Under the pieces are notes generated by a model. That model was given only the letters and a program-made list of their open reading frames with translations, ran no database searches and was not told the DNA's origin. The position numbers and the translations under genes are program-made. Shown piece after piece: positions 6,749 to 7,900 of a stretch of 21,083 bases of DNA (its first letter is position 1; the number at the start of each line of letters is the position of its first letter). The DNA is taken from positions 1 to 21,083 of IMG/VR virus record IMGVR_UViG_2802429228_000007, one strand, 5' to 3'. The stretch is from a virus (Duplodnaviria > Heunggongvirae > Uroviricota > Caudoviricetes).

Positions 6749-7900
6749 ATGAACACCGTTAGACTAAATGATTATTTTTGCAAAATTAGAACTTCAACTG
6801 GACAGATTTTAATGCTCACTGAAGAAAAAAATTACATCAATGCCTTAGATCATCTAAGATTCTATGCTGCCGTCATGGTTATTTTTAGACATTTTTTCGA
6901 TTTTAATTCGATCCCTTTAGATAAAAATTTTATTTACTATCTTTGCGGGACGTGGATAAAGGCTGGCTCAACAGGAGTCAGTCTATTTTTGGTAATTTCG
7001 GGGTTTATTTTTACCGTAATTTGCAAAGGAGGGGAAAAAGATATTATATACGCAAAGTTTATTAAAAATAGAGTGTTAAGAATATTTCCTTTGCTTACTG
7101 TTGTATACTTTATTGTTATTAGCATGAATCTAGATCGATCTACATCAGATGATATTATTAGATTAATCCTGCTTCAACTAAACACAGGTGGTGCGAGTTG
7201 GGGACTAGATAAATTCCCAGCATATCCACTTTGGACAATAGCTGTAGAATTCCAATTCTACCTCTTATTTCCTTTTCTGATTAAATTCATTAAGTCATCG
7301 GGAGTAAAATATATTCTTACACTCATGCTGACATTGCTTTGCATTCGCATAATGATGGTTTCCAAAGGAGGAATTGAACAGACAGGAAATATACTTTATC
7401 AAACGTTATTTGGAAGGCTGGATCAATTCTTGATAGGCATTGCATTAGGCCTAATGTATATAAGTGATTGCTTCAACAAATTAAAAGCAAGCAAAATCAT
7501 GAGCGCTATTTTAATGATAATTTCTTTGGGATTATTAACCTGCTACTTTTCGCACAGACTTGAAAATCGCCTTTTGATGAATTACTTTGGATTCATAACC
7601 GAAGCTTTGTTATGGTCAACCTTTATTATCGCATACTTGTTTTTATTGGGGGGTTACGATAATAATTTATCTTATGCTTTTACGTTATTAGGGAAGGTTA
7701 GTTTTTCAATATACCTTCTGCACGTACCAATTATAATAACAACAAAAAATATATTTAATGATCTAGATCTTTCTAATATAACAAATTCCATTTTTTTCCT
7801 TCCTTTTATTGGAATACCAATTACTGTGCTGGTAGCATCGCTAACGTATAATGCAATCGAAAAACCATTTCTAAATTTAAAATCAAAATATTTCAAGTAA
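6749..7900 (+). CDS. Acyltransferase-3 family integral membrane protein (candidate O-antigen or surface-polysaccharide O-acetyltransferase); cargo gene
   Basis: 383-aa ORF on the opposite strand to the tail genes, strongly AT-rich relative to its flanks. About 10 predicted hydrophobic helices. N-terminal motif NALDHLRFYAAVMVIFRHF resembles the LDGLRG..A...V..H signature of Acyl_transf_3 (OafA/Oac-like) proteins. An alternative start is the ATG at 6812 (MLTEEKNY...). Confidence 0.7.
   Translation: MNTVRLNDYFCKIRTSTGQILMLTEEKNYINALDHLRFYAAVMVIFRHFFDFNSIPLDKNFIYYLCGTWIKAGSTGVSLFLVISGFIFTVICKGGEKDIIYAKFIKNRVLRIFPLLTVVYFIVISMNLDRSTSDDIIRLILLQLNTGGASWGLDKFPAYPLWTIAVEFQFYLLFPFLIKFIKSSGVKYILTLMLTLLCIRIMMVSKGGIEQTGNILYQTLFGRLDQFLIGIALGLMYISDCFNKLKASKIMSAILMIISLGLLTCYFSHRLENRLLMNYFGFITEALLWSTFIIAYLFLLGGYDNNLSYAFTLLGKVSFSIYLLHVPIIITTKNIFNDLDLSNITNSIFFLPFIGIPITVLVASLTYNAIEKPFLNLKSKYFK

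What the first reader, a model, noticed from the sequence alone, without database searches (positions are those of the whole stretch)
6749..7900. Acyltransferase-3 family membrane protein as AT-rich cargo at the FI/H (Z/fun-equivalent) slot
Seen in sequence: a 10-TM or so ORF with an Acyl_transf_3-like N-terminal motif, strongly AT-rich, on the strand opposite to the tail operons, ending in a 12-bp stem-loop shared with the convergent tail-fibre gene. Established knowledge: acyltransferase-3 proteins such as Oac and OafA acetylate O-antigen or other surface glycans, and several temperate phages use them for serotype conversion that blocks superinfection. The slot between the tail-fibre genes and FI is a known variable cargo site in P2 (Z/fun). 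Inference: a prophage-encoded surface-modification gene expressed in the lysogen.
Basis: partly seen in the sequence, partly recalled or inferred. Interest (0 to 1): 0.6.

Follow-up and report, generated by a model that had tools for sequence, protein, structure and literature searches.

The report
Acetyltransferase gene inside a flippable tail-fibre cassette
A prophage gene for a membrane sugar-acetylating enzyme is real, and it sits inside a 2.3-kb piece of DNA that flips orientation in wild Escherichia marmotae, so that the tail-fibre gene is either complete or truncated with the enzyme gene directly behind it.

Summary
Window 6749-7900 (+) is an intact AT-rich ORF (32% GC against about 55% in the flanks) that matches Pfam Acyl_transf_3 (E=1.5e-35). 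It has all the AT3 catalytic motifs. The true start is probably ATG 6812 (362 aa).

The "cargo at the Z/fun slot" reading is correct for position but incomplete. The gene lies inside a 2,335-bp Gin/Hin-type invertible tail-fibre segment (6502-8836). The segment is bounded by two inverted 26-bp crossover sites, one of them inside fibre gene H.

One strand of the segment carries the glycine-rich fibre tip and a 41-aa ORF. The other strand carries a truncated alternative fibre tip followed by the acyltransferase.

Both orientations occur in natural E. marmotae sequences with otherwise identical flanks. Three of 24 contigs are flipped, and in those the 322-aa fusion protein H' is followed 86 nt later by the acyltransferase.

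The same cassette (99.5% identical) sits in a Mu-like prophage beside a Gin-like invertase. Homology there breaks exactly at the crossover cores. The window itself has no invertase.

Relatives of the enzyme lie in O-antigen or LPS loci, or convergent to phage fibre and spike genes. Surface-glycan O-acetylation that blocks adsorption is therefore the likeliest function, but it is inferred. Expression control is unresolved.

The parts
6471..6488 (.). GC-rich hairpin with a T-run on the minus strand. It looks like a terminator that closes the fibre operon just outside the invertible segment, upstream of the FI late-promoter region.
   Evidence: -16.4 kcal/mol, z = -4.9.
6490..6515 (+). Crossover site B, TTCTTTCAAAGG|TT|GGTTTGGAAGAT. 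The outer half is native to 186-like prophages. The inner half belongs to the cassette.
   Evidence: The consensus scan finds only this site and site A in 5.2 kb, with 0.05 expected. E. coli CX21 (L002) has the same outer half. Homology to L004 starts at the site centre.
6502..8836 (.). Invertible segment of 2,335 bp, analogous to the Mu G segment.
   Evidence: L092 carries exactly this interval inverted. Its flanks are 100% (6,508 nt) and 99.95% (8,322 nt) identical to the window. The predicted junction sequences were found.
6504..6725 (+). Truncated alternative fibre tip. It is in frame with the constant part of H after inversion (73 codons, stop TAG 6723-6725). It is homologous to the start of the glycine-rich tip and ends where the AT-rich DNA begins.
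   Evidence: BLASTP against H residues 236-288 gives 55% identity, E = 1e-15. The natural fusion protein P0123 (322 aa) ends with exactly this sequence.
6750..6778 (+). Weak sigma-70-like promoter candidate, TGAACA-17-TATTTT (8 of 12 matches).
   Evidence: It falls below the 9-of-12 threshold. Relatives outside invertible segments have TTCAAA or TTTAAA-17-TACAAT (9 of 12).
6812..7900 (+). AT3-only acyltransferase gene, 362 aa.
7905..7941 (.). Perfect 12-bp stem-loop with a 13-nt loop. It is a probable bidirectional transcription stop between the convergent units inside the segment.
8063..8188 (-). AT-rich ORF of 41 aa directly after the fibre gene. It is conserved with the cassette. Relatives have a 57-aa ORF at the same position, and the 57-aa ORF resembles the N-terminus of Caudo_TAP fibre-assembly proteins. 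Any chaperone-like role is unproven.
8196..8835 (-). Variable C-terminal part of fibre protein H, the Gly_rich_2 receptor-binding tip. It lies inside the segment.
   Evidence: Pfam Gly_rich_2 E = 2.3e-11. It is 100% identical in the Mu-like locus L003.
8823..8848 (-). Crossover site A, inside H at the boundary of constant and variable parts. On the minus strand it reads TTCTCGAATACC|TT|GGTTTAACAGAT and encodes ..ILEYLGLTD...
   Evidence: Homology to L003 stops at the site centre.
8836..9581 (-). Constant N-terminal part of fibre protein H (Phage_tail_fib collar domain). It lies outside the segment.

Best explanation
The gene encodes an AT3-only (Oac-like) membrane O-acyltransferase. It is carried as a passenger inside the invertible tail-fibre segment of a 186/P2-like prophage of Escherichia marmotae.

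**Shown**
- The enzyme is intact and has the family's catalytic motifs.
- Its gene occupies the half of the segment that normally holds the alternative fibre tip and its assembly gene.
- The segment is bounded by two inverted Gin/Hin-type crossover sites and occurs in both orientations in nature.
- In the window orientation, H is full length with its glycine-rich tip, and the acyltransferase points the other way.
- In the flipped orientation, H becomes a 322-aa truncated H' and the acyltransferase lies 86 nt downstream on the same strand.
- The same cassette sits next to a Gin-like invertase in a Mu-like prophage.

**Inferred**
- The enzyme passes acetyl groups from cytoplasmic acetyl-CoA to a surface glycan, most likely O-antigen or LPS.
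- That modification masks the receptor of the fibre tip encoded in the same cassette. This would give superinfection exclusion, or self-immunity if the defective prophage acts as a tailocin.
- The gene is transcribed from a weak promoter of its own in either orientation, with extra late-operon read-through when flipped.
- Inversion is catalysed in trans, because the window has no invertase.
For: **Enzyme**
- Pfam Acyl_transf_3 E=1.5e-35. PHROG 3333 'O-acetyltransferase' E=7e-45.
- Motifs R16-X10-H27, FLVISG 59-64, R87-VL-R90 and VEFQFY are present. They are defined as functionally critical in PMC7448272.
- dN is 0.27-0.30 with saturated dS against the 62-64% identical homologues.

**Family context**
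- A homologue lies next to gnd in an O-antigen cluster (L033).
- Homologues lie in Pasteurellaceae glf/GT8 glycan loci (L025-27).
- Homologues lie convergent to fibre or spike genes in at least 9 prophage loci.
- The 62-64% identical homologues again pair with a Gly_rich_2 fibre and a small ORF.

**Invertible segment**
- Two sites and no others were found.
- E. coli relatives have the same outer half-sites flanking canonical Sv-tfa/tfa'-Sv' segments, some with a Resolvase gene.
- Homology to L003 and L004 breaks at the site centres.
- The predicted fusion protein exists as MED9635946.1.
- Flipped DNA is seen in L086 and L092. Three of 24 contigs with an identical sheath gene are flipped.
- The invertase in L004, L093 and L094 matches Mu Gin 3UJ3 at E=1.4e-56.
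Against: - No biochemical, LPS or transcript data exist. The substrate is unknown.
- The closest characterised or isolated-phage AT3 proteins are at most 28% identical, and no NCBIfam equivalog matches.
- The upstream promoter match is weak, 8 of 12.
- The window has no invertase, and no enhancer was looked for, so present-day switching in this strain is not shown.
- The prophage lacks head, terminase and lysis genes.
- Some strains carry a frameshifted 340-aa allele, and the Mu-like copy L093 has a split gene. Selection on the gene may therefore be relaxed.
- The link between the fibre tip and the enzyme rests on two diverged lineages only.
Confidence: 0.65

Rival explanations
1. Inversion-gated expression. 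The acyltransferase has no effective promoter of its own. It is silent in the window orientation and is made only when the segment flips, as the second gene of an H'-acyltransferase unit read from the tail late operon, as with Mu S'U'.
For: - No 9-of-12 promoter lies upstream on the + strand.
- Genes in Mu-type segments depend on the outside promoter (established knowledge).
- In flipped loci H' stops 86 nt before the gene on the same strand.
- The hairpin lies right after the gene.
Against: - P2/186 late promoters are silent in lysogens (established knowledge). This would confine expression to induced cells that are making truncated fibres.
- An 8-of-12 promoter candidate exists.
- Homologues outside invertible segments carry their own TACAAT promoter-like site.
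Confidence: 0.2
2. The enzyme acylates a target other than the phage receptor. Candidates are enterobacterial common antigen, capsule or K-antigen, osmoregulated glucans and peptidoglycan. It would then serve the host, for example in immune evasion or envelope physiology, rather than blocking phage.
For: - AT3 proteins act on many glycans (PMC9558356).
- No close characterised relative exists.
- Pasteurellaceae homologues sit in general glycan loci.
Against: - The gene is repeatedly placed beside fibre and spike genes in many prophages.
- It is co-inherited with one kind of fibre tip.
- A homologue lies at the gnd end of an O-antigen cluster.
Confidence: 0.15
3. Decaying passenger. The gene is a hitch-hiking remnant in a defective prophage and has no current function in this host.
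For: - The prophage has lost its head and lysis genes.
- Frameshift and split alleles exist.
- The three differences from L003 and L004 are all non-synonymous.
Against: - The ORF is intact with every motif in the window and in most contigs.
- Long-term purifying selection is evident across lineages.
- The cassette is kept in two unrelated prophages.
Confidence: 0.1
4. One reading: a plain moron dropped into the Z/fun slot between fibre genes and FI, with no connection to DNA inversion.
For: - The position is the P2 Z-region.
- The DNA is AT-rich and followed by a hairpin.
Against: - Crossover sites flank the gene.
- Breakpoints of homology fall at their cores.
- Flipped loci exist.
Confidence: 0.05

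Closest known systems
Oac (OacA) of Shigella phage Sf6 and other phage-borne AT3-only O-antigen acetyltransferases (OacB/C/D, phiV10; reviewed in PMC9558356)
   Same: - AT3-only architecture of about 330-360 aa with the R/K-X10-H, FFXISG-like and RXXR motifs.
- Prophage-borne, AT-rich, and placed next to the receptor-binding gene.
- Expected mechanism: acetylation of the O-antigen that hinders the phage's own adsorption.
   Different: - At most about 28% identical to any AT3 in sequenced phage isolates.
- Carried by myovirus (P2/186-like and Mu-like) prophages rather than P22-like ones.
- Located inside an invertible fibre segment rather than beside int/att.
- Substrate unknown.
Mu G segment / P1 C segment / e14 P segment (Gin, Cin, Pin invertible tail-fibre segments)
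   Same: - Two inverted 26-bp crossover sites with the AAACC-NN-GGTTT core, one inside the fibre gene at the boundary of constant and variable parts.
- An alternative tip on the opposite strand, in frame after inversion.
- A Gin-like serine invertase beside the sister copy.
- Both orientations seen.
   Different: - One half no longer encodes a working tip plus chaperone. It holds a 73-codon tip remnant followed by a membrane acyltransferase.
- Inversion therefore toggles complete against truncated fibre, not two host ranges.
- The copy in the window has no invertase gene.
P2 Z/fun and the Z-region cargo slot of P2-like phages (PMC3091744)
   Same: - Same map position between the fibre genes and FI.
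- Horizontally acquired gene of different base composition.
- Predicted phage-exclusion role.
   Different: - No sequence relationship to Z/fun was sought or seen.
- The slot in this lineage is an invertible segment.
OafA/OafB (GtrC family II) of Salmonella and prophage BTP1
   Same: - AT3 domain and O-antigen acetylation that protects against the carrying phage.
- Phase-variable expression is known for oafB, by an epigenetic mechanism (PMC9558356).
   Different: - Those are AT3-SGNH fusions of about 600 aa. This protein has no SGNH domain.
- Any phase variation here would be by DNA inversion.

Membership tests
Acyl_transf_3 (PF01757), AT3-only O-acyltransferases | Profile match above the curated threshold over the whole domain | tested here: met
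   123.3 bits against a cut-off of 31, E=1.5e-35, model positions 2-321 of 326. PHROG 3333 E=7e-45.
Acyl_transf_3 (PF01757), AT3-only O-acyltransferases | R/K-X10-H motif in TMH1, FFXISG-like motif in TMH2, and the RXXR motif (definitions in PMC7448272) | tested here: met
   R16...H27, FLVISG 59-64 and R87VLR90. The arginines R87 and R90 are invariant, and R16 and H27 are at least 90% conserved, in 40 homologues.
Acyl_transf_3 (PF01757), AT3-only O-acyltransferases | Polytopic fold of about 10 TM helices, shared with the transmembrane acyltransferase superfamily | tested here: met
Acyl_transf_3 (PF01757), AT3-only O-acyltransferases | No fused SGNH or periplasmic domain (AT3-only architecture) | tested here: met
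   The protein is 362 aa and has no other Pfam domain.
Serotype-converting phage O-antigen acetylases (Oac-like) | Acetylation of O-antigen, with a resulting block of adsorption or superinfection | not testable with these tools
   Only context is available: homologues at gnd or in O-antigen and LPS loci, and beside fibre or spike genes.
Gin/Cin/Hin/Pin-type invertible tail-fibre segment | Two inverted 26-bp crossover sites matching the family consensus, one inside the fibre gene | tested here: met
   Exactly two hits (6490-6515 and 8823-8848) with 0.05 expected. Control loci with invertase genes give sites at the same positions.
Gin/Cin/Hin/Pin-type invertible tail-fibre segment | Both orientations exist, with exchange at the core dinucleotide | tested here: met
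   The fusion protein P0123. L086 and L092 carry 6502-8836 inverted with the predicted junctions. Three of 24 contigs are flipped.
Gin/Cin/Hin/Pin-type invertible tail-fibre segment | A functional alternative fibre tip and its assembly gene on the opposite strand | tested here: not met
   Only a 73-codon remnant is present, homologous to the start of the tip. It is not recognised by the Gly_rich_2 profile. The rest is replaced by the acyltransferase.
Gin/Cin/Hin/Pin-type invertible tail-fibre segment | A serine invertase gene adjacent to the segment | tested here: not met
   No invertase is found in the window or in the flipped prophage L092. One is present beside the identical cassette in L004, L093 and L094, and it matches Gin 3UJ3 at E=1.4e-56.
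Gin/Cin/Hin/Pin-type invertible tail-fibre segment | A Fis-dependent recombinational enhancer in cis | not tested
   In known systems the enhancer lies in the 5' part of the invertase gene (own knowledge). That gene is absent from the window.
P2 Z-region cargo (Z/fun slot) | Non-P2 gene between the fibre genes and FI | tested here: met
   The gene order FI | cassette | H-I-J-W-V is seen here. The slot is defined in PMC3091744.
Moron (promoter-gene-terminator unit) | Own promoter and own terminator | tested here: inconclusive
   A hairpin lies 5 nt after the stop but has a poor U-tract on the + strand. The promoter match is only 8 of 12.

The most novel reading that the evidence does not exclude
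The cassette is a self-contained 'weapon plus immunity' module. It holds a receptor-binding fibre tip and the enzyme that masks that tip's receptor, packaged between two invertase sites. It can therefore hop as a unit between unrelated contractile-tail elements (186-like, Mu-like, and possibly a tailocin-like defective prophage). Its inversion would act as a phase switch between 'complete fibre' and 'truncated fibre with the acetyltransferase co-transcribed'. That would be DNA-inversion control of serotype conversion.
Probability: 0.2. Interest if true: 0.7.

Novelty: new variant of a known kind. Interest (0 to 1): 0.5.

Why it matters
Phage-borne O-antigen acetylases and invertible fibre segments are each textbook items. 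I found no report of the two combined.

If the enzyme masks the receptor of the fibre tip it travels with, the cassette shows how host-range and self-protection determinants can be inherited and exchanged together by site-specific recombination. That would bear on three things:
- predicting phage and tailocin specificity;
- serotype variation in E. marmotae, an emerging Escherichia species;
- engineering tailocins together with matched immunity.

If the enzyme is merely a passenger, the finding is an ordinary lysogenic-conversion gene in an unusual location.

Tried and rejected
- **The 383-aa start (6749).** Rejected. No exact product is on record, and homologues start at Met22.
- **Cargo DNA in sequenced phages and 5,426 E. 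coli genomes.** Absent. Only the FI promoter region matches.
- **Invertase in the window.** None.
- **NCBIfam and PADLOC for the enzyme.** No hits.
- **Full-length relative of the alternative tip remnant.** The search returned nothing.
- **Exact cassette and junction patterns in IMG/VR and JGI metagenomes.** No hits.
- **Direct look-up of P0123.** The flipped DNA was reached through the sheath gene with a short flank, and through the 185-aa tip ORF.
- **A 16-of-21 inverted pair in L005 that hinted at a second invertible arrangement.** Not pursued as evidence. Relatives L006 and L062 lack it.
- **Second crossover sites in L029 and L010.** Not found. Those look like decayed segments.
- **Literature on acyltransferases in invertible fibre segments.** No report found.

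Full report
**1. Observation**

The ORF at 6749-7900 (+) is real. It lies in a 1.47-kb AT-rich core (6729-8195, GC 0.32) between GC-rich tail genes (FI 0.57, H constant part 0.56). It matches Pfam Acyl_transf_3 over the whole model (E=1.5e-35, 123 bits against a cut-off of 31). It also matches PHROG 3333 'O-acetyltransferase' (E=7e-45).

All 120 listed homologues are 327-386 aa (most 355-375) and the closest align from the internal Met, so the true gene is 6812-7900, 362 aa. The 12-bp stem-loop exists at 7905-7941 and is far more stable than shuffled sequence. It is 254 nt from the stop of fibre gene H, with a 41-aa ORF (8063-8188 -) in between.

**2. The enzyme**

In 362-aa numbering the protein has R16-X10-H27, FLVISG (59-64), R87-V-L-R90 and VEFQFY (145-150). 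The R/K-X10-H, FFXISG and RXXR motifs are conserved in characterised AT3 acetyltransferases, and the TMH1 R and H and both RXXR arginines are essential in OafA (PMC7448272). R87 and R90 are invariant, and R16 and H27 at least 90% conserved, in an alignment of 40 homologues.

There is no SGNH domain, so the architecture is AT3-only, like Oac. Against homologues that are 62-64% identical, dN is 0.27-0.30 while synonymous sites are saturated. That indicates long-term purifying selection.

**3. Host and element**

The window is a phage 186/P2-like prophage. About half of the 5000-10200 interval is 93-95% identical to the closest sequenced 186/P2-like phages, and phage 186 itself matches the tail tube-sheath region at 92%. 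Exact-protein look-ups place it in Escherichia marmotae, next to rplS-trmD-rimM.

The gene order is D-U-T-E-FII-FI | cassette | H-I-J-W-V | AT-rich island | S-R | A ... cII, apl, cI, int. Gene A directly abuts a lysC remnant and R. This copy has therefore lost its head, terminase and lysis genes. A complete version exists in other genomes (L058, L066).

**4.

Just outside the FI promoter region, the + strand reads TTCTTTCAAAGG|TT|GGTTTGGAAGAT (6490-6515). Inside H, the minus strand reads TTCTCGAATACC|TT|GGTTTAACAGAT (8848->8823). A scan with the Gin/Cin/Hin-type consensus finds exactly these two sites in 5.2 kb, with 0.05 expected. In E. coli 186-like relatives it finds sites at the same two positions with the same outer half-sites (L002), or flanking canonical segments (L079).

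Those relatives carry the classic layout H(Sc+Sv)-tfa / tfa'-Sv' between H and FI, some with a Resolvase gene next to FI.

From 6504 the + strand encodes, in the frame of H, a 73-codon sequence. The predicted junction fragment that contains it is 55% identical to H residues 236-288 (E=1e-15). This is the start of a second glycine-rich tip. It stops at 6725, exactly where the AT-rich DNA begins.

The segment 6502-8836 therefore holds Sv (the Gly_rich_2 tip) and a 41-aa ORF on the minus strand. On the plus strand it holds an Sv' remnant followed by the acyltransferase.

**5. The segment really flips**

The fusion protein predicted for the inverted state is the H constant part through ..AAILEYLGL followed by EDSKRG...STQTA, 322 aa. 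It exists as MED9635946.1 from E. marmotae.

At the DNA level, L086 and L092 (ENA ERZ28640028, scaffold_131) carry window 6502-8836 inverted. The two predicted hybrid junctions are present. The flanks are 100% identical over 6,508 nt and 99.95% over 8,322 nt. Of 24 contigs with an identical sheath gene, 3 are flipped.

In the flipped locus the gene order on one strand is ...I, H' (322 aa), an 86-nt gap, then the acyltransferase. The orphaned tip is called as a 185-aa ORF on the other strand. No invertase is present in the window or in L092.

**6. The cassette is mobile**

Window 6497-8847 is 99.5-99.6% identical to two other contexts:
- L003, a Mu-like tail module (Gp45, GP46, Baseplate_J, Gp48);
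- L004, L093 and L094, where a 182-aa serine invertase lies just outside site B.

That invertase is closest to Mu Gin (3UJ3, E=1.4e-56). Homology breaks exactly at the centres of the two sites. The inner half-sites travel with the cassette and the outer half-sites belong to each host element. This pattern is what exchange at the crossover sites would leave, although homologous recombination cannot be excluded. The Mu-like copy lies near trpA-ompW in Escherichia-like DNA and could supply the invertase in trans. Co-residence in one genome was not shown.

**7. What the enzyme probably does**

Homologues fall into two kinds of place.
- **Glycan loci.** One lies next to gnd, with a sulfotransferase gene, in an Enterobacterales O-antigen cluster (L033). 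Others lie with glf, GT8 and ABC-transporter genes in Pasteurellaceae (L025-27).
- **Prophages.** Others lie immediately downstream of, and convergent to, fibre or spike genes. These include L008, L010, L012, L014, L015, L016, L029/L009, L031 and L037. L037 is a Buttiauxella P2-like prophage that uses the same FI/H slot.

The closest relatives (62-64% identity; an unnamed Logan contig L005, a viral contig L006, and E. hormaechei L062/L063) again pair with a Gly_rich_2 fibre and a small ORF in a different myovirus. L005 keeps an invertase remnant. L029 and L010 keep one crossover site in the fibre gene, and L029 also keeps an invertase remnant. Landing in the distal half of fibre inversion segments therefore seems recurrent.

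Phage-borne AT3 enzymes such as Oac, OafB and the phiV10 protein acetylate O-antigen, and Oac and OafB are reported to block their own phage (PMC9558356). By analogy the likeliest role is O-acetylation of O-antigen or LPS that masks the receptor of the co-inherited tip. This is inference. The nearest AT3 in any sequenced phage isolate is at most 28% identical, and there is no NCBIfam equivalog.

**8. Expression is unresolved**

The standard scan finds no promoter upstream on the + strand. A looser scan gives TGAACA-17-TATTTT (6750-6778), 8 of 12 matches. Homologues outside invertible segments have a 9-of-12 site with a TACAAT -10 element.

In the flipped state the gene lies in the late tail operon behind H'. 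In either state the 7905-7941 hairpin follows it. A strong terminator-like hairpin (6471-6488) closes the unit just outside site B. Two models remain: an autonomous moron, or inversion-coupled expression. They are not mutually exclusive.

**9. Signs of decay**

One lineage has a 1-nt deletion in the T7CC tract at about 7792-7799, giving a 340-aa allele. The Mu-like copy in L093 has an IS3-family insertion in the fibre gene and a split acyltransferase. The prophage in the window is head-less. A purely vestigial status therefore cannot be excluded, but the gene is intact in the window and in most copies.

**10. Verdict**

The enzyme is a new, uncharacterised lineage of a well-known kind, the prophage AT3 O-acetyltransferases. 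Its placement inside a naturally flipping Gin-type fibre cassette, in place of the alternative tip and chaperone, is to my knowledge undescribed. So is the movement of that cassette between 186-like and Mu-like prophages. I rate the finding a new variant of a known kind, with moderate interest (0.5).

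Noticed in passing
window 12100-13450: A second AT-rich island (GC 0.32-0.37) on the + strand, at the P2 orf30 slot between V and S. It holds two ORFs: 12199-12771 (PHROG 22917, unknown function, no Pfam) and 12764-13408 (HIT/DcpS_C-like, PHROG 23000). Neither has a PADLOC hit. The same pair occurs in an E. coli 186-like prophage (L080).
   Followed up: partly
window 13902-16201: Replication gene A (14477-16201 -) directly abuts a lysC remnant and tail gene R. 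The head, terminase and lysis genes are deleted. Most contigs with this prophage share the deletion, and L058/L066 have the complete late region. The element keeps a full tail module and might act as a tailocin.
   Followed up: partly
window 7792-7799 (compare L065, P0126): A 1-nt deletion in the T7CC tract gives a 340-aa frameshifted acyltransferase in GCA_053097245.1. L070 and L071 have a 338-aa call. This could be a decay allele or a slippage-prone tract.
   Followed up: partly
L093 8733-11946; L094 9915-12868: The same cassette with an intact Gin-like invertase lies in a Mu-like prophage next to trpA-ompW. In L093 an IS3-family element interrupts the fibre gene and the acyltransferase is split into 191- and 113-aa ORFs.
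   Followed up: partly
L016 7145-9604: A homologue of the acyltransferase lies convergent to a tailspike that carries a GDSL/SGNH esterase domain. An acetylase thus sits beside a putative deacetylating spike.
   Followed up: no
window 8063-8188; L005 1672-1845; L031 9101-9502: Small ORFs of 41 aa (window) and 57 aa (L005 and relatives) follow the Gly_rich_2 fibre genes. The 57-aa ORF resembles the N-terminus of Caudo_TAP fibre-assembly proteins. They have no family hit or only weak PHROG hits of unknown function.
   Followed up: partly
window 6471-6488: A terminator-like GC hairpin with a T6 run on the minus strand lies immediately outside crossover site B and upstream of the FI late-promoter region. 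That region is conserved in E. coli relatives.
   Followed up: partly
window 7767: The window has A (Asp) where nearly all other copies have G (Gly), in ..NDL(D/G)LSN.. of the acyltransferase.
   Followed up: no
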